A DNA stretch of 64,000 bases, from the NCBI RefSeq assembly GCF_009914755.1, contig NC_060925.1. The stretch is one strand, 5' to 3'. This document shows, piece after piece, positions 30,101-47,269 of this stretch; position 1 is the first letter of the stretch; every line of letters begins with the position of its first letter. The notes under the pieces were generated by a model. That model was not told the DNA's origin and did not search any database. It saw only the letters and a program-made list of their open reading frames with translations. Both the position numbers and the translations under genes were made by a program. Origin of the DNA: the human T2T-CHM13v2.0 reference genome, Homo sapiens.

Positions 30101-30138
30101 CCAATTCCACTGATCCTGTGAAGGCTGCCCAATTTGAG
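30101..30138 (+). CDS. FCGR2C: FCGR2C C2 exon (38 nt), donor mutated to AT
   Basis: ccacag|ANSTDPVKAAQFE|atgagt; position c.798+1 is A (30139). Confidence 0.92.
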
Positions 30139-33100
30139 ATGAGTAATCCCAGCCATCTCCTTTTCTTCCTGCCTTGTCCCTTCTCTCCTGTTTCCTCTCT
30201 TTTTGCCTTTGTTAATGCAAAATTAAAATGGAGACTGGGCCTGAAAACTCCTGAGCAAACAAAGCCACCCGGGCCTTAGAAATAGCCTTATCATTGCTTA
30301 AACTGCAAACATAAGTGAAACTCAAGTTGGATTGTAACTAAAAATAGGTAATACTTAACTTGGATCATTTCTGGTAAATATTTATGTTAGACAGAAATAA
30401 GATTTAACCCTAGCCAATCGTAAGCAGCCAACTAACATAATTATGTGACTAAGAACACTTCAGTAAGGTACCTCACCCAAAAGACAATTATGTAACTGCA
30501 AACCTATCAAATTTCTTTATTTTACTTCCACATCTTCCCAATTAATACCTGTCTCTGACTTTCTGTCATTAAAACATTAGACCTCTTTTGGTTTGGTGTC
30601 ACCCAATTCATGAATTGCTTCTTACTCAAATGAACTCTTTAAAATTGTATTGTGCCTTAGATTTTTCTTTAACAGTTTGGTGTCAGAAGTAGGATATAAA
30701 GTAGAATCTCCCCCAAAGATCCCTAAGAGCAATGGGTGACCAGGCATAGGTACCCATTAAGCCCATTGTGTTCACTGGTTTCTTCCTGCATTTGTGAGTC
30801 ACTAGGTAAGTCCCTCTCAGATATCAGGCTTGCAACTTGTGTCCTGAGCTCTCTGAGTTTATTTGAGTAATTTTATTTCTCATTTGATTCAGCGGTTAAT
30901 CTGGGTATTTGACAAGTTCATCTGTTTCCAACAGGAACTATACTAGGTCCAGTATAGTGTACTAGTTTCCAGACAAGGTCTGATTTCTGGATTGGGATCC
31001 AGAGGTCAAATTGGGTATTTGACAGATTGAACTAGGTGTTCAACAGAAACTGAACTGGGGGTCCAGTTGGAGTCCTCAGGTAGGTAAATTTCAGAAGGGC
31101 AAGATATTATGGCTTTGTCAGAATGTACAGAGTCTGGGACTCCTCCATCTGAAACACAGTGATTTCTATGTTCAGATAATATGGGCCCAGAACCTGTGAC
31201 TTTCTAGAGAAATAGGTGTGCCTTACCTATTGAGCCTTACCAGAGATGACTTAAAGTTGCAATGGTCACAGTGAGGATGTTTAAATCTAGAAAAAATTGT
31301 TCATTTAAGGGATGCATTGGGAAAAAATGAGATCCCAAATGTCTCAGAAACAATGATAAATAATTTTGATTGGTATGTAAAGGTTTCTAAAAGAATGATT
31401 TAAAAAAATAGTCTCTCTAAGTAAATCTTTACAATGTGCTAATAAGAAAGTATTCTAAACCTATTAACCTCTTTGATTGCTTGCTTTTTCCATCTGAACC
31501 TACTCAATGCTAACCTCCTTAAAAAATTAGATCCTCAAATGAGCCAGGAGTATCTACAACAACTAAATTTAACTCTTGTTATTGCACACATGAACTATTA
31601 TAAAAGCAACCACTAAGGCTAAAAATAATAAAAACTAACTGGAAATAGGCCAGATAAACTAGATGTCTCCTTAGTCACTCATTTAAAATTTAATCCAGTC
31701 TCAATAAGATTGACTCCTAATAATAGGTGAAAATGCCCCAAAACTCCTTCTTGGAGAAGCTTCGTACCCTTTCTCCGGGCCTTTGAATTGTGTAAATGTT
31801 TTTAAAACACAAGCTTCAGCGAAAAGACTCATCAAAAAGAAAGAAGGAGGAATTTTTTAGAAACAAACTGGCAAATGAAAAATCTTAATAGTCCTCTCCA
31901 CAAATATCAATAAAAAGTGTCAGCCATCTGAACAGCTAACTTTAACCAGAGACTAGATCCAACTAATTAGTTTTATATTATTATACCTGGCACATGGCTA
32001 AAATTTCAGAACAAAAGCCATGAATTTCTGTTTGCATCTTTCTGTATGTTTACATATATCTACACATGTGTATGCTATTTGTACATAATATTATTCTATC
32101 TCCAGATGGTATTTATTAGAAACAGTATTAAAGGAGCTCAACTGGCCTAGAGAAAAATAAGCACTTATATAAATTACATATTTTCTCAGAAGAAAAGAAC
32201 TTGGCCAAAATGCTTTTCAACTTCATATGACCTGAGTAATCTTTTATAAATAAGAATATTGGCATTAATGAAAGTGAATATTCTACCTAGTTTTACCCAA
32301 ATAAGCTCATGTTGTCTGCTATACAATTTGTCAAAAAAATACCTTGAGATGACAGGTAGTTGGTTTTGTTAATATTATGTTTGCCACTTTAACTATGTTA
32401 AATGAAATGACAGGTATTCATTAAATATCTACACCATTTCCAGATAAGACAAACTACTAAAACAAAAATAAAAAAGTGTTCCACTTATCTTTTTCTCTCT
32501 ACCTGATTGTTTCAGAATTTGGAAACTCTTATTAAGTATTTTTATTTTCAATCTGGGTGTTTGCATAGGTTCAATAAGAATCTATTCTCCTTATGACAGG
32601 ACATAATTGGGCAAGTCCTTGGCTTGGCTTCTTAGCCTAGAGAGGCTTTTAAAGGTCTAATCTGAGATTTCTCAATTACTAGATAGTGTTTAAAAACTAA
32701 AGTTGACTGATAACAAAGTCAGTAAAGTCTCTTGGATATCACCAAAACTGTGGCTAAAATATATTTTAAAATTACTGTTTTTATTATACCTATATAAATA
32801 ATCAGGTCAAAATTAATGAAACTAGATTTATTTTTGCAAAAAAGTCAACTTTGATTTTTGGTAAAAATGGAAAATAAAAATATTTTTCTCCAGAATAAAA
32901 AAGATTATATTTTAGTAGAAAACTATTGTGCATCCATTGTCAAATTCTAGGCCTGTTCATTTTCTTTGAAGTTTTATTATCTCCCTATAAACCAGATTGA
33001 CTCCTGAATTTTTGTTTTTTAGTTCCACTAGAAACTAAAACTGCCCTTTTCCAAAGCTCTGCAAACTGAAACTGGTGACTTTAAGCTTCAGAAAAATCAC

Positions 33101-33494
33101 TGCAACAGAGCACTTATGCCTTAATGCCAATCTTAATGCCTGCTGCTATCTGGGTCACTCAGAGAGTTTACCAGAATGTTTAATGAAATAACCAGAGACA
33201 TTCAAATTGCAAACCAGTAAAGCACATCACATTGCAACTGCTATCTTCAGTCTACCATTTAAACTTGCCTCAAACTCACCTCTAGAAATTGTTTCACCTA
33301 GCTGCCCTCTAAACTCAAAAACTAAGATCATAATTTGCTCCAAATATTAACTTTGTTTTTTTAATAGAAGAATACTCTGAATTCCTTTCAAGCAATACAA
33401 TCTAAAATGAGCAAGTTAGCCTCAATAGCACCCCAAAATAGAAGTTCTTGGTATCTTAACAGCTTAACAAGGAGGAGCTTGTGTTCCTACTGAT

Positions 33495-33975
33495 GTCAAA
33501 AGAAATGCTTAAAGATCTCAGTTGGCTTTATGGTGATTCTAGAACTGGGCAATACTTGCCACCTTAAATTAGAATAAGGTTTCCAATGAGTTACAGCAGA
33601 GGAGATTGGCTTCATAGACAGAAAAAGGTCTGAAGAAAGCAGAAACAAAGAATTTAAAGTGGATTGGCTATTTTAAAGCTGGTTAAAGTTGCAAAAGACA
33701 GGAATAGGGAAACAGAATAATAAATAACTGGTTGGTTAACATCAGGTTACTCTTTTGTAAGGATGCCAATTGAAACTGGCCTGTTTGGGAGATTAGATTT
33801 TTAGGTTATTAGGTTATTATCTCTCTCTCCTGATTTTTCCAAAGGCCAGATAAGAATGTAGTTTCTGTTTGGTGACTTGAAACTTTATCGTGGGTGATTC
33901 CATTTTGATTTTTAGTCTGTTCTGTTTGGGCCTAGTGCAGGAGCTTAGTGCAAAACAACAGCCTCCTAAAATTTA
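33495..33975 (-). mobile_element. Second ERV1-class solo LTR (MER67-like) nested in the env relic
   Basis: Reverse complement begins ...ggaggctgttgttttgcactaagctcctgcactaggccc...aaaatggaatcac and interrupts the env ISD-to-TM region. Confidence 0.55.
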
Positions 33976-34180
33976 AAAGACTTTAAAGAACATACATGAG
34001 TTTTTCATCAGATAATATTTATTTGTATTCATTAATTTATTTGATTGGTTAAGTCTTGGCTCCCGAGAATCTTTGCTCAGAGGAATTTTTCAATCCTTGG
34101 CTATTATTCTCCTTATAGTTATTGTATTTACCTCCCCGGTGTATTGAATTATCCTATGGGTTTTAAATGCTTTCCTGCAG

Positions 34181-34354
34181 CCACCTGGACGTCAAATGAT
34201 TGCCATCAGAAAGAGACAACCTGAAGAAACCAACAATGACTATGAAACAGCTGACGGCGGCTACATGACTCTGAACCCCAGGGCACCTACTGACGATGAT
34301 AAAAACATCTACCTGACTCTTCCTCCCAACGACCATGTCAACAGTAATAACTAA
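34181..34354 (+). CDS. FCGR2C: FCGR2C last coding exon C3 (ITAM)
   Basis: ctgcag|PPGRQMIAIRKRQPEETNNDYETADGGYMTLNPRAPTDDDKNIYLTLPPNDHVNSNN*; YxxL-x12-YxxL. Confidence 0.95.
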   Translation, partial: PPGRQMIAIRKRQPEETNNDYETADGGYMTLNPRAPTDDDKNIYLTLPPNDHVNSNN

Positions 34355-34746
34355 AGAGTAACGTTATGCCATGTGGTCACACTCTCAGCTTGCTGAGTGG
34401 ATGACAAAAAGAGGGGAATTGTTAAAGGAAAATTTAAATGGAGACTGGAAAAATTCCTGAGCAAACAAAACCACCTGGCCCTTAGAAATAGCTTTAACTT
34501 TGCTTAAACTACAAACACAAGCAAAACTTCACGGGGTCATACTACATACAAGCATAAGCAAAACTTAACTTGGATCATTTCTGGTAAATGCTTATGTTAG
34601 AAATAAGACAACCCCAGCCAATCACAAGCAGCCTACTAACATATAATTAGGTGACTAGGGACTTTCTAAGAAGATACCTACCCCCAAAAAACAATTATGT
34701 AATTGAAAACCAACCGATTGCCTTTATTTTGCTTCCACATTTTCCC

Positions 34747-34752
34747 AATAAA
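34747..34752 (+). terminator. Proximal poly(A) signal inside the 3' LTR
   Basis: AATAAA in the LTR downstream of the stop codon. Confidence 0.65.
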
Positions 34753-34827
34753 TACTTGCCTGTGACATTTTGCCACTGGAACACTAAACTTCATGAATTG
34801 CGCCTCAGATTTTTCCTTTAACATCTT

Positions 34828-35124
34828 TTTTTTTTGACAGTCTCAATCTGTTACCCAGGCTGGAGTGCAGTGGTGCTATCTTGGCTCACTGCAAACCCGC
34901 CTCCCAGGTTTAAGCGATTCTCATGCCTCAGCCTCCCAGTAGCTGGGATTACAGGCATGTGCCATCATAACCAGCTAATTTTTGTATTTTTTATTTTTTT
35001 TTTTAGTAGAGACGGGGTTTCGCAATGTTGGCCAGGCCGATCTCGAACTTCTGGCCTCTAGCGATCTGCCCGCCTCGGCCTCCCAAAGTGCTGGGATGAC
35101 CAGCATCAGCCCCAATGTCCAGCC
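34828..35124 (-). mobile_element. Alu inserted at the 3' LTR terminus
   Basis: Antisense Alu; TSD ctttaacatctt at 34816-34827 and 35126-35137. Confidence 0.9.
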
Positions 35125-35189
35125 TCTTTAACATCTTCTTTCCTATGCCCTCTCTGTGGATCCCTACTGCTGGTTTCTGCCTTCTCCAT

Positions 35190-35273
35190 GCTGAGAACAA
35201 AATCACCTATTCACTGCTTATGCAGTCGGAAGCTCCAGAAGAACAAAGAGCCCAATTACCAGAACCACATTAA
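35190..35273 (+). pseudogene. Fossil FCGR2B-type ITIM exon in the 3' UTR
   Basis: AENKITYSLLMQSEAPEE... versus FCGR2B AENTITYSLLMHPDALEE; preceded by a pyrimidine tract ending in cat instead of cag. Confidence 0.88.
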
Positions 35274-35749
35274 GTCTCCATTGTTTTGCCTTGGGATTTG
35301 AGAAGAGAATTAGAGAGGTGAGGATCTGGTATTTCCTGGTCTAAATTCCCCTTGAGGAAGACGAAGGGATGCTGCAGTTCCAAAAGAGAAGGACTCTTCC
35401 AGAGTCATCTACCTGAGTCCCGAAGCTCCCTGTCCTGAAAACCACAGACAATATGGTCCCAAATGACTGACTGCACCTTCTGTGCCTCAGCCATTCTTGA
35501 CATCAAGAATCTTCTGTTCCACATCCACACAGCCAATACAATTAATCAAACCACTGTTATGAACAGATGTAGCAACATGAGAAATGCTTATGTTACAGGT
35601 TACATGAGAACAATCATGTAAGTCTATATGACTTCAGAAATGTTAAAATAGACTAACCTCTAACAACAAATTAAAAGTGATTGTTTCAAGGTGATGCAAT
35701 TATTGATGACCTATTTTATTTTTCTATAATGATCATATATTACCTTTGT

Positions 35750-35755
35750 AATAAA
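35750..35755 (+). terminator. Distal poly(A) signal of FCGR2C
   Basis: AATAAA at the end of the ancestral FCGR2-type 3' UTR. Confidence 0.6.
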
Positions 35756-36343
35756 ACATTATAACCAAAACATTCTGTTTACCTTTTCAGGGCTGTATTG
35801 ATTGGGGTGTAGACTGAACTATCCGGGGTCTGTTTCTTTTCGGTGATGAAAGTCTTGAGAAGGTAGTAATGGATAAGATGTGAAGGAGAGGAGAGATGGA
35901 GATTTGGAGTGTAGGGTGAGTGCCCCTCTTCTTAAAACTGAATACTCTTCTTCTAATGAACTTGTATTCTTGTTTCCATGTCTTCTTGCCTTTCCTTCTA
36001 TGGCAAATAAAACACTCACTTTGTTTTGGAACACAAGTTCTCAGAAAGGCAAACTTTAGGTGAGTCGTCAGTGGAGACTGCTGACTTCCTGCACTGCTAT
36101 TTTCCCAGTGCAGTTACCAGAAGGATGTGACCTTCTCAGAGAAGTCATTCCAGGCAGATTAGAAACATGACCCACAGTCTCCTTGATGGTTTGGTGAGTG
36201 CCCTTAAAGAGCCTTCCATTTTCCTGGGACACAGCATCACTGTGCACAATTCTTGCATTTGAAAAGTAGCAGCTTTCTCTGTTGGATAGTTTACATCGAT
36301 TTTTAAGGAGGCTATGGAGCTTCCACCCACCCTTCCAAACTCT

Positions 36344-46011: not shown

Positions 46012-46497
46012 GCTGGGGAGCGGGACAAGGCGGTGGAGAATCTGATCCTTACCAAAGTTTGACACTACTGCGTTAGCGTTAAAAAAAAAAAAACCCAGCT
46101 AAGACTGTAGAGCAAATTAAAGGATCCTGAGTTGAGGGCGTTCTCTTGTTTAGTCAAAGGAGATGGTATCTGCCTGCCTTAGTGTGCTTGACGCACAGAA
46201 AGGGCTCAACACATTGTTGTTGAATAAAAGAATGGATAAATTGACACTGGGAAGTTGGAGTCCAAAGTTACTCTTAGTCTCAACTGCTCCCTGTTTTCAT
46301 AGACCAGACTCCAGCCTACAATACAGGAAAAATAGATTTAGTTCTATATGTGCAGAGAAGCACAAATAATTTTCGTAAATGTAGATACCCAGGATAAAAC
46401 GCAGTGTTGACCGATCGAAAAGTCTTTCTCTAAGAATTCAAACATAATTGCTGGTTGGTTCAAATCAGGAGGAAAAGTAAGGATGGAAAACATACGT

Positions 46498-46581
46498 TGT
46501 CAAAAGTGGGATTCGAACCCACGCCTCCAGCGGAGGGTGCGATTTGAACGCAGCGCCTTAAGACTGCTCGGCCATCCTGAC
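46498..46581 (-). tRNA. TRL-CAA6-1: tRNA-Leu(CAA), intronless, on a Leu-CAG-type body
   Basis: GTCAGGATGGCCGAGCAGTCTTAAGGCGCTGCGTTCAAATCGCACCCTCCGCTGGAGGCGTGGGTTCGAATCCCACTTTTGACA; intact B-box, T4 terminator. Confidence 0.88.
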
Positions 46582-47269
46582 ACACGTTTTGCTAAACTTC
46601 CTAATTTCTCCTAATTTTATCATATACTGATGGTGCACGCTATCAGGTCACATTAATGTGTCTATTTACTGTTTCAAATAAAATTGTAACTCTCTCTAGA
46701 CCTTGTCGCAAAGCGGGAAAAATGAAACAGCCTCCGACAGCTCTTTCCTCTTTCCTCACTACCCAAACTAAACCTTAAGGCTCCATTTTCCCTGGCGACT
46801 CTTCGAGCGCCCCTCTGCTTCTGTAGAGGGGTCGAGCCATGTCAAGGTAGACCCTGTGTCGGCCCGTCTCCCTCGGATCCTCCGCACCAATCACTGTTGC
46901 TGAATCCGACACCCGGCGGATCCAGTGCGGAGTCTCGAACAGCTGCGGAGCTGGGAGCTACCGGACATGAGGAGTGCGCGGGGGAAGAGAAGACGGCGGA
47001 GGAAAATCCCCCGGCGGTGCTCAACTGCGGCTTTCTCTCTCGGCTGTGAGCCGGCTCCGCCCTCCGGCTTCCAGAGCAAGTGGCTTCTGCGTTCACCGCC
47101 CCCCGCCGTTTGTGGGGCGGGGCCGATTCATAAGAATCGGTTCTCACCAATGGAGGGCTTAGCTTGTTTAACCTCAGGATCATAAACAAAAGACACTGCT
47201 AGAACGGTCGGGAGAGTCATACGCTTTGCTTATCTTATATATAGATTTCTAAAATTCCAAACCGGGGAC

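What the first reader, a model, noticed from the sequence alone, without database searches (positions are those of the whole stretch)
30210..34823. The activating exon, stop codon and proximal poly(A) site all lie inside an endogenous retrovirus
Seen: paired LTRs, a PBS matching the tRNA-Leu 3' end at 17/18, a gag-like relic, a PPT directly before the 3' LTR, and 4-bp flanks matching 3/4 (cctt/tctt). The ITAM exon ends 52 nt before the PPT. Removing the provirus and the Alu leaves an intron of about 125 nt between C2 and the fossil ITIM exon. Inference: a single sense-strand proviral insertion into a small intron rewired the receptor tail. A retroviral origin of the FCGR2A tail has, as I recall, been suggested before.
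Basis: partly seen in the sequence, partly recalled or inferred. Interest (0 to 1): 0.8.

Follow-up and report, generated by a model that had tools for sequence, protein, structure and literature searches.

The report
Fc receptor tail from retroviral envelope
The activating tail of the human antibody receptor FcγRIIA/C is encoded inside an old endogenous retrovirus, which was already published, and here it turns out to be the inner tail of that virus's envelope protein, still read in the viral frame.

Summary
Window 30210-34823 is a real provirus: paired LTRs (84% identical), tRNA-Leu primer-binding site (17/18), polypurine tract, and a 4-bp target duplication. FCGR2B keeps the empty site, to the base. 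The ITAM exon, its stop codon and one AATAAA lie inside the provirus. An intact-looking ITIM exon lies stranded downstream.

No gag relic was found in any scanned frame of the window or of two fuller copies.

The core idea is already in print (Lejeune et al. 2019, PMC6563257), so the finding as given is known. That paper reported no gag, pol or env homology.

Here the element's family does show a gamma-type env relic. A chr18 copy matches Pfam TLV_coat (E=1.6e-13) and Syncytin-1 (E=4e-14). Downstream, in one frame, follow a hydrophobic membrane span, the ITAM-like tail and a stop about 50 nt before the polypurine tract.

Across 12 dispersed copies that frame has 12 stops in 1166 codons, against 68 and 96 in the other two frames.

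So the receptor's signalling tail is most likely an envelope cytoplasmic tail captured in frame. I did not find this in print.

In this window the gene copy is an FCGR2C-like pseudogene with a broken C2 splice donor.

The parts
30101..30138 (+). Exon C2 of the FCGR2C-like gene; it ends on a codon boundary
   Evidence: Hub annotation; alignment to FCGR2A, FCGR2C and FCGR2B
30139..30140 (+). C2 splice donor, AT in this copy and in FCGR2C, GT in FCGR2A and FCGR2B
   Evidence: intron-7 splice defects of FCGR2C are described in PMC6786274 (passage)
30206..30209 (+). 5' copy of the 4-bp target-site duplication (CCTT)
   Evidence: FCGR2B carries CCTT once at the empty site
30210..30674 (+). 5' LTR (TGTTAA...TTTAACA)
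30678..30695 (+). Primer-binding site complementary to the tRNA-Leu(CAA) 3' end, 17/18
   Evidence: a second copy (L029) has the same PBS with a 2-nt insertion
33368..33505 (+). Decayed env TM ectodomain relic (region of the immunosuppressive-domain and CX6CC motifs)
   Evidence: DNA colinear with L028 7353-7466. BLASTP to the L028 piece E=7e-6. The L028 piece hits TLV_coat E=1.6e-13 and Syncytin-1 E=4e-14. The window piece alone is not detectable
33506..33975 (.). Nested insertion of an unrelated interspersed repeat of about 465 bp that splits the env relic
   Evidence: Absent from 12 of 12 family copies; 551 first-look candidates genome-wide, of which 40 were scored, giving 49 listed matches (3 of them the FCGR2 paralogues, 98-100% identical); dispersed matches 67-97% identical, the near-full-length ones 67-72%
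34085..34165 (+). Relic of the env membrane-spanning domain, in the same frame as the ITAM exon, with one TGA at 34145-34147
   Evidence: Kyte-Doolittle 19-residue maximum 2.69 at 34097-34153; conserved in family copies; P0004 aligns ungapped to EnvT residues 562-621, E=0.032
34168..34180 (+). Pyrimidine tract and splice acceptor (tttcctgcAG); most family copies read CCAGCAG (Gln-Gln codons of env)
34181..34353 (+). ITAM exon (PPGRQMIAIRKRQPEETNNDYETADGGYMTLNPRAPTDDDKNIYLTLPPNDHVNSNN) with stop TAA 34351-34353; read here as the env cytoplasmic tail in the env frame
34406..34418 (+). Polypurine tract
   Evidence: conserved in family copies
34420..34823 (+). 3' LTR
34747..34752 (+). AATAAA in the 3' LTR, the candidate proximal poly(A) signal
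   Evidence: It is the only AATAAA between the stop codon and 35750. Family LTRs carry AATAAA-like hexamers at this position. Use not tested
34824..34827 (+). 3' copy of the target-site duplication (TCTT)
34828..35137 (-). Antisense Alu with its second target-duplication copy (CTTTAACATCTT 35126-35137; first copy 34816-34827)
   Evidence: The duplication includes the LTR end, so the Alu came after the provirus
35190..35273 (+). Fossil ITIM exon (AENKITYSLLMQSEAPEEQRAQLPEPH*), frame open, acceptor AG changed to AT at 35188-35189
   Evidence: identical in FCGR2A, FCGR2C and this copy
35750..35755 (+). Distal AATAAA
   Evidence: The annotated FCGR2C gene end (117560) minus the paralogue offset 81789 gives 35771

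Best explanation
A non-autonomous class-I (gamma-like) provirus inserted, in the gene's orientation, into the short intron between exon C2 and the ITIM exon of an FCGR2B-like gene. That intron is 110 nt in FCGR2B and 123 nt here once the insertions are removed.

The only recognisable viral gene left in the element is the 3' half of env. It comprises a relic of the TM ectodomain, the membrane-spanning domain, the cytoplasmic tail, and a stop about 50 nt before the polypurine tract.

An AG inside two Gln codons near the start of the cytoplasmic tail, just after the membrane span, serves as splice acceptor. C2 ends on a codon boundary and the acceptor falls on an env codon boundary. The receptor is therefore fused in frame to the last 57 codons of Env, which carry the YxxL boxes now called the FcγRIIA ITAM.

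Translation stops where env stopped. The transcript can end at the 3' LTR's AATAAA or at the old host signal about 1 kb further on. The ITIM exon is left untranslated in the long 3' UTR and has lost its acceptor.

Shown: the insertion, the empty site, the env relic in the family, the common frame, and the positions. Inferred: that the membrane span and tail belong to env (by position, frame and hydropathy, with only marginal similarity), actual use of the LTR poly(A) site, and the order of events.

In this window the copy is an FCGR2C-like pseudogene with an AT donor after C2. The working version is FCGR2A, about 81.6 kb upstream and 99% identical over the segments compared.
For: Provirus and empty site.

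Family: 23 matches to window 34040-34425 in the genome at E<=1e-10 from 31 scored candidates; 3 are the FCGR2 paralogues. In 12 of 12 dispersed copies fetched, the tail region runs on into the same LTR type.

Env: chr18 copy L028 hits PF00429 TLV_coat at E=1.6e-13, 50.7 bits against a cut-off of 22.5, profile positions 439-504 of 560. It also hits Syncytin-1 6rx1 at E=4e-14, and Syncytin-2, an entry titled only 'Envelope glycoprotein' (4jf3), MLV and HERV-S71 TM chains. The window relic versus the L028 piece gives E=7e-6. L024 versus the EnvT ORF at residues 490-512 gives E=8e-4. L031 versus Syncytin-1 at residues 374-398 gives E=0.023.

One frame: L029 reads from KKSCFCVNK... through the hydrophobic span to the tail's end in a single frame. 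That opening stretch aligns to L028's EKCCFDVNK inside the TLV_coat match, E=8e-4.

Library protein P0004 is an uninterrupted 112-aa ORF of span plus tail. It aligns without gaps to the last 60 residues but five of the EnvT ORF, E=0.032.

Stop-codon control over 12 copies read in the window's codon register: 12/1166 in the exon frame against 68/1161 and 96/1151 in the other two.

Indels shared by 3-10 of 13 sequences: 21, 9, 3, 3, 3 nt in span plus tail (5 of 5 multiples of 3), against 1, 1, 3, 4 nt after the stop (1 of 4).

Hydropathy maximum 2.69.

The Tyr boxes are a family trait: Tyr at the DY, YMTL and YLTL positions in 8, 4 and 8 of 12 copies. The copy at chr11:21.95 Mb reads DYGIADGGYMTLNPSEPIDNNNIYLTL.

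End of the frame: five of 12 copies have TGA at the window's stop position and five have TAA two codons later (three read CAA GAG TAA, two other codons). The remaining two (L025, L034) show no in-frame stop there.
Against: The window's own env relic is too decayed to be recognised by Pfam or against PDB sequences.

Only 1 of 21 scanned frames, from 7 copies, reached a Pfam retroviral family.

Similarity of the membrane span and tail to known Env proteins is marginal: E=0.032 for P0004, E=3.1 for L029 and nothing useful for the window piece.

L029's span-plus-tail reading had no PDB match.

No intact Env with this tail turned up among 1.84 billion representative proteins. The 5 hits were two FcγRII-like receptors, two short ERV ORFs and one frame-shifted reading of the receptor's 3' end that runs on into the 3' LTR.

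The tail is about twice the 25-35 residues given as typical for gammaretroviral tails (PMC9967133, passage).

The 12 copies share an ancestor, so the stop-codon count speaks about one ancestral sequence, not twelve independent ones.
Confidence: 0.82

Rival explanations
1. The exon arose by chance from non-coding DNA of a non-autonomous retroelement with no gag, pol or env content, as Lejeune et al. describe the interior. On this view the open frame and the YxxL boxes are fortuitous.
For: Lejeune et al. found no homology with gag, pol or env (PMC6563257, results passage). My Pfam scans of the window agree for this copy.
Against: A family copy has a significant env TM match. The exon frame continues from it. 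Stops are depleted 6- to 8-fold in that frame only, and shared indels there are all multiples of three.
Confidence: 0.1
2. The virus had picked up a host ITAM-coding sequence by transduction before it spread. The tail would then be of host origin and merely ferried by the element.
For: Retroviruses do transduce host sequence (general knowledge). The tail is longer than typical gamma-type tails (PMC9967133, passage).
Against: The tail is continuous in frame with the membrane span and lies just before the PPT, where env ends. The search of 1.84 billion representatives returned no other host ITAM protein at E<=0.001. That library is mostly microbial, so this is weak evidence.
Confidence: 0.05
3. 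The two repeats are unrelated solo LTRs flanking host sequence; this is the reader's own refutation case.
For: None found.
Against: There is an empty site in FCGR2B with a 4-bp duplication. PBS and PPT sit at the inner LTR edges. Interior plus LTR is colinear in 12 of 12 dispersed copies.
Confidence: 0.01

Closest known systems
The HERV in FCGR2A described by Lejeune, Brachet and Watier 2019 (PMC6563257)
   Same: It is the same element in a paralogue. The paper reports an LTR-flanked segment of about 5 kb between IC2 and the old IC3, a new ITAM-like IC3 exon inside it, and a vestigial ITIM exon behind it. It also reports a second copy at 11p14.3 with a DX2YX2LX11YX2L reading, and traces of the element in Otolemur, Callithrix and Macaca.
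   Different: The paper names the LTRs MER57F and the interior MER34B, and states that no gag, pol or env homology was found. Here a gamma-type env TM relic is found in the family, and the exon is placed in the Env cytoplasmic tail, in frame. Also new here are base-level detail on the PBS, PPT, target duplication and FCGR2B empty site, and the order of the Alu insertion. Their RepeatMasker table (Supplementary Table 3) could not be read; only its caption is held as text.
Domesticated gamma-type env genes (Syncytin-1, Syncytin-2, EnvT and others)
   Same: Coding sequence from a gamma-type env is expressed as part of a host protein. The family's TM relic matches these proteins.
   Different: Those genes keep the whole env ORF and use its ectodomain. 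Here only the last 57 codons, the cytoplasmic tail, are spliced onto a host receptor, and the rest of env is decayed.
[quoted passage not shown]
   Same: It is an Env TM tail with paired YXXL boxes that transduces signals when fused to CD8 (PMC1839114, passages).
   Different: That is an exogenous deltaretrovirus. No homology to this tail was tested or claimed, and whether this family's tail ever signalled in the virus is unknown.
LTR-supplied polyadenylation and exonised transposable elements at gene 3' ends
   Same: The terminal exon, stop codon and one candidate poly(A) signal are contributed by an inserted LTR element.
   Different: Here the captured coding part keeps a viral protein's own frame and its membrane topology (a cytoplasmic tail of a type I membrane protein).

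Membership tests
Endogenous provirus (LTR retroelement, class I / gamma-like) | Two LTRs in direct orientation with TG...CA ends | tested here: met
   30210-30674 and 34420-34823, 84.4% identical over 391 nt
Endogenous provirus (LTR retroelement, class I / gamma-like) | Target-site duplication (4 bp is the class I length, recalled) and an unoccupied site in a paralogue or orthologue | tested here: met
   CCTT/TCTT; FCGR2B has CCTT once, and its matches to the two flanks abut exactly
Endogenous provirus (LTR retroelement, class I / gamma-like) | tRNA primer-binding site just inside the 5' LTR and polypurine tract just before the 3' LTR | tested here: met
   PBS 17/18 to tRNA-Leu(CAA); PPT 34406-34418
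Endogenous provirus (LTR retroelement, class I / gamma-like) | gag and pol coding relics | tested here: not met
   0 of 6 window frames and 0 of 9 frames of the 5' interiors of L029 and L033 hit a retroviral Pfam family. The element is non-autonomous
Gamma-type Env TM subunit (Pfam PF00429 TLV_coat) | Region of the immunosuppressive domain and CX6CC motif, recognised by the family model | tested here: inconclusive
   Met in family copy L028 (E=1.6e-13; Syncytin-1 E=4e-14). The window's own copy is linked only through L028 (E=7e-6; DNA colinearity) and fails on its own
Gamma-type Env TM subunit (Pfam PF00429 TLV_coat) | Hydrophobic membrane span followed by a cytoplasmic tail with a YxxΦ motif, ending shortly before the PPT | tested here: met
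   Hydropathy 2.69; same frame across copies; stop 52 nt before the PPT; features as listed in PMC9967133 (passage). Sequence similarity to EnvT is only marginal (E=0.032)
ITAM | Two YxxL/I boxes with a defined spacer | tested here: met
   YMTL, 12 residues, YLTL in the window and FCGR2A. This is non-canonical spacing, as stated in PMC6563257
ITAM | Tyrosine phosphorylation and Syk recruitment | not testable with these tools
   Known for FcγRIIA from the literature (recalled); unknown for the viral tail
Repbase/Dfam MER57F LTR with MER34B-int interior | Match to the curated family models | not testable with these tools
   No repeat library was on hand. The names are taken from PMC6563257 and PMC5753468 (table passage)

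The most novel reading that the evidence does not exclude
The paired YxxL boxes were already a working signalling or trafficking module in the ancestral virus's envelope protein, as in bovine leukaemia virus TM. On this reading primates did not evolve the FcγRIIA ITAM. They inherited a ready-made viral one, with the right membrane topology, in a single insertion that also switched off the ITIM.
Probability: 0.3. Interest if true: 0.75.

Novelty: already known. Interest (0 to 1): 0.5.

Why it matters
FcγRIIA is the only activating IgG receptor that signals without the common γ chain. It matters in immune-complex disease, heparin-induced thrombocytopenia, antibody-dependent enhancement and therapeutic antibody action (general knowledge).

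That its tail came with a retroelement is published. Knowing that the tail is an envelope protein's cytoplasmic tail, kept in frame, would correct the statement that the element has no viral gene content. It would also explain why the captured piece works on the cytoplasmic side of a type I membrane protein.

It raises a testable question: did a viral Env tail already bind Src/Syk-family or sorting machinery?

It also warns that HERV expression atlases listing 'MER34B_1q23.3' loci may simply be counting FCGR2A/2C mRNA (inference).

Tried and rejected
Pfam on the six frames of the window interior found nothing retroviral.

The PDB sequence search with the window's env relic gave 0 hits at E<=10. 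The same search with L029's span plus tail also gave 0 hits.

Pfam on P0004 and on the window's span plus tail gave no TLV_coat match, only sub-threshold unrelated families.

BLASTP of the window's span plus tail against the EnvT ORF gave no meaningful alignment.

A search for gag or pol in the fuller copies L029 and L033 found nothing.

The search of protein representatives for an intact Env with this tail found none among 5 hits.

ARAGORN with default settings missed the intron-containing tRNA-Leu genes. Rerun with introns allowed, it found them.

The literature search on use of the proximal poly(A) site found 0 papers. An old cloning paper that I recall as reporting 1.5- and 2.5-kb transcripts could not be opened. 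That point therefore rests on recall only.

The copy statistics therefore rest on 12 of about 19 dispersed matches.
Full report
WHAT IS THERE

The window is human chr1 (T2T-CHM13), in an FCGR2C-like pseudogene according to the hub annotation. Between exon C2 (30101-30138) and a fossil ITIM exon lies an LTR element.

The 5' LTR is 30210-30674 and the 3' LTR is 34420-34823. Both begin TGTTAA and end TTTAACA. They align over 391 nt with 330 identities (84.4%; 38 transitions, 23 transversions; K2P 0.177). The 3' LTR lacks 24 and 35 nt that the 5' LTR and the family LTRs possess.

Three bases after the 5' LTR comes TGGTGTCAGAAGTAGGAT (30678-30695). I searched the genome for the reverse complement of its first 15 bases (all but the three that pair with CCA), with one position left free. 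This gave 163 matches against 21 for the control pattern. Four chr6 matches are intron-containing tRNA-Leu(CAA)-type genes. ARAGORN, rerun with introns allowed, labelled one of them Leu(caa) and misplaced the intron in the other three, which share the same body. Their 3' end plus CCA pairs with the PBS at 17 of 18 positions. A tRNA-Leu(CAG) gene and the window's own tRNA-Leu(CAA) at 46496-46582 give 16 of 18.

The polypurine tract AAAAAGAGGGGAA (34406-34418) ends one base before the 3' LTR. The stop codon of the ITAM exon (34351-34353) lies exactly 52 nt before it.

THE EMPTY SITE

The window's assembly could be searched. Window 30000-30209 matches FCGR2B at chr1:161021550-161021752, and window 35138-35420 matches at 161021753-161022027, the very next base.

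In the alignment FCGR2B reads ...GTTGCCTT|CTTTCCTAGG... The window reads ...TTTGCCTT[provirus]TCTT[Alu and its duplication]CTTTCCTATG.... FCGR2B thus has the 4-nt target once and the window has it twice, with one substitution. The 3-of-4 flank match would mean little in a pyrimidine tract on its own. With the empty site it becomes a sound 4-bp duplication.

The antisense Alu is flanked by CTTTAACATCTT on both sides (34816-34827 and 35126-35137). That is the last 8 nt of the LTR plus the 4-nt flank, so the Alu came later.

Without the insertions the intron is 71 + 52 = 123 nt. The FCGR2B intron is 110 nt.

The fossil exon (35190-35273) still reads AENKITYSLLMQSEAPEEQRAQLPEPH*. Its acceptor is AT where FCGR2B has AG. 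It is identical in FCGR2A, FCGR2C and this copy.

WHAT WAS NOT THERE

Reading all six frames of the interior with X at stops, Pfam found no retroviral family at E<=10. It found none in the 5' interiors of two fuller copies either (0 of 9 frames).

PRIOR PUBLICATION

Lejeune, Brachet and Watier (PMC6563257; abstract, results passages and the whole discussion read) described this element in FCGR2A.

- They report a segment of about 5 kb with LTRs close to MER57F and an interior close to MER34B.
- They report a similar reading in a copy at 11p14.3.
- They report traces in Otolemur, Callithrix and Macaca.

Two later reviews repeat the retroviral-element statement without more detail (PMC11659932 and PMC6786274, passages). 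The finding as given is therefore known.

THE FAMILY AND ITS ENV RELIC

The stretch around the exon has dispersed relatives. At E<=1e-10 there are 23 matches from 31 scored candidates, 3 of them the FCGR2 paralogues. I fetched 12 dispersed copies.

All 12 are colinear with the window from about 34030 into the LTR. Several also match 30768-33505. LTR and interior therefore belong together in this family.

Copies lack window 33506-33975. That stretch is a nested insertion of another repeat of about 465 bp, with 551 first-look candidates in the genome.

I read 21 frames of 7 copies with X at stops. One frame, from the chr18 copy L028, matched Pfam TLV_coat (E=1.6e-13, 50.7 bits, cut-off 22.5, profile 439-504 of 560). 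The other 20 frames gave no retroviral family.

The same piece matches solved Syncytin-1 (E=4e-14), Syncytin-2, an entry titled 'Envelope glycoprotein' (4jf3), HERV-S71 and MLV TM chains. It reads ...[38 protein letters not shown]...

The window's homologous stretch (33368-33520) reads NTLNSFQAIQSKMSKLASIAPQNRSSWYLNSLTRRSLCSYxCQKKC. It aligns to the L028 piece (E=7e-6) but is undetectable alone.

Two other copies give weaker independent matches to intact human env ORFs taken from the same genome. L024 against the 626-aa ORF that I take to be EnvT gives E=8e-4 at residues 490-512. L031 against the 538-aa ORF that I take to be Syncytin-1 gives E=0.023 at residues 374-398. The names EnvT and Syncytin-1 are recalled from position and length.

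THE EXON IS THE ENV TAIL, IN FRAME

In the window, the frame of the ITAM exon read upstream gives ...SLLRGIFQSLAIILLIVIVFTSPVYxIILWVLNAFLQ|PPGRQMIAIRKRQ... The hydrophobic stretch has a Kyte-Doolittle 19-residue maximum of 2.69. A basic cluster follows it. The acceptor AG sits just after the span, about ten residues into the inferred tail.

Copy L029 reads, in one frame with three stops, from KKSCFCVNKLEMVAQNLKTL through the span to ...IYMTLCSSDYINSDNHK and a stop. That opening stretch aligns to L028's [20 protein letters not shown] inside the TLV_coat match, E=8e-4.

The representative library holds an uninterrupted 112-aa ORF of span plus tail from an unnamed record (P0004). It aligns without gaps to residues 562-621 of the 626-aa env ORF, E=0.032, including PCILSRVLNDFQQ against PCILNSFLNFIKQ. 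That similarity is marginal. The assignment rests mainly on position, frame and hydropathy.

Controls. I read the 12 copies in the window's codon register. The exon frame has 12 stops in 1166 codons. The other two registers have 68 in 1161 and 96 in 1151. The copies share an ancestor, so this says that the ancestral sequence was open in this frame over about 108 codons.

Indels shared by 3-10 of 13 sequences are 21, 9, 3, 3 and 3 nt within span plus tail. After the stop they are 1, 1, 3 and 4 nt. This fits coding constraint while the family was diversifying.

The frame ends at the same place. Five of the 12 copies have TGA at the window's stop position. Five reach TAA two codons later: L028 and L033 read CAA GAG TAA and L027 a variant of it (CAA GAG GAA at the third codon), L029 and L031 have other codons. 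In L025 and L034 no in-frame stop is seen there.

Tyrosine at the three Tyr positions is seen in 8, 4 and 8 of 12 copies. Both 11- and 12-residue spacers occur among the copies.

The FCGR2 copies differ from most relatives just before the acceptor. They read CCTGCAG where the others mostly read CCAGCAG, which lengthens the pyrimidine run.

3' ENDS

After the stop codon the hexamers are AATAAA at 34747 (3' LTR), ATTAAA at 35670 and AATAAA at 35750.

Family LTRs carry AATAAA-like hexamers at the 34747 position. The 5' LTR has AATTAA there.

The annotated end of FCGR2C (117560 in window terms) minus the paralogue offset of 81789 is 35771, just after the distal signal. The long 3' UTR therefore crosses the LTR, the Alu and the ITIM fossil.

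I could not show that the LTR site is used. No paper was found on it.

AGE

The LTR pair is 84.4% identical. The FCGR2B flanks are 78.5% identical (near upstream), 91% (far upstream) and 86-87% (downstream).

The insertion is therefore about as old as the tract of homology with FCGR2B. This fits the published view that loss of the ITIM and gain of the ITAM were close in time.

At a recalled neutral rate of 2.2e-9 per site per year, K2P 0.177 gives about 40 million years. That sits uneasily with the reported traces in Otolemur. A slower rate or LTR-LTR gene conversion would reconcile the two; I could not test either.

THIS COPY

The C2 donor is AT here and in FCGR2C, and GT in FCGR2A and FCGR2B. 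This matches the intron-7 splice defects reported for FCGR2C (PMC6786274, passage). The arrangement is seen here in a dead paralogue. FCGR2A, 99% identical over the compared segments, is the working one.

NOVELTY

Six searches turned up no paper that places the exon in env. The two candidates that held all the terms were opened and are irrelevant. Subscription journals and repeat-database annotations were not searchable, so prior knowledge cannot be excluded.

Noticed in passing
window 30139-30140: The splice donor after exon C2 is AT in this copy and in FCGR2C, but GT in FCGR2A and FCGR2B. This fits the reported intron-7 splice defects that abolish FcγRIIC expression.
   Followed up: partly
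window 33506-33975: An unrelated interspersed repeat of about 465 bp is nested in the env relic. It has 551 first-look candidates in the genome; near-full-length dispersed copies are 67-72% identical. It is present in all three ERV-bearing FCGR2 paralogues. Its family was not named because no repeat library was available.
   Followed up: partly
window 35190-35273: The stranded ITIM exon still has an open frame with ITYSLL and is identical in FCGR2A, FCGR2C and this copy, although its acceptor AG is now AT.
   Followed up: yes
window 34343-34344: The RefSeq model of the pseudogene uses a GT donor inside the ITAM exon, 8 nt before the stop, and splices to 35791-35915. It is a predicted model and was not checked.
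   Followed up: no
window 46496-46582: The window's tRNA-Leu(CAA) gene has no intron. Its 3' end (…CTTTTGACA) differs from that of the chr6 intron-containing tRNA-Leu(CAA) genes, so it pairs with the PBS at only 16/18.
   Followed up: partly
chr1:160780317, 160861900 and 160943689 (L003, L001, L002): This assembly carries three ERV-bearing FCGR2 copies (FCGR2A, the window's FCGR2C-like copy, and FCGR2C). That amounts to an extra FCGR2C/FCGR3B module.
   Followed up: no
literature, bioRxiv 10.64898/2026.09.25.754430: A HERV expression study lists MER34B_1q23.3a and MER34B_1q23.3b as microglia-enriched loci and does not mention FCGR2A. These are probably reads of the FCGR2A/2C terminal exon (inference).
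   Followed up: partly
P0001 and P0002 (unnamed records of the protein library): These are two FcγRII-like receptors with the ERV-derived tail, an 11-residue spacer, and IRIRQ/IRTRQ where human has IRKRQ. That is closer to the dispersed copies' reading.
   Followed up: no
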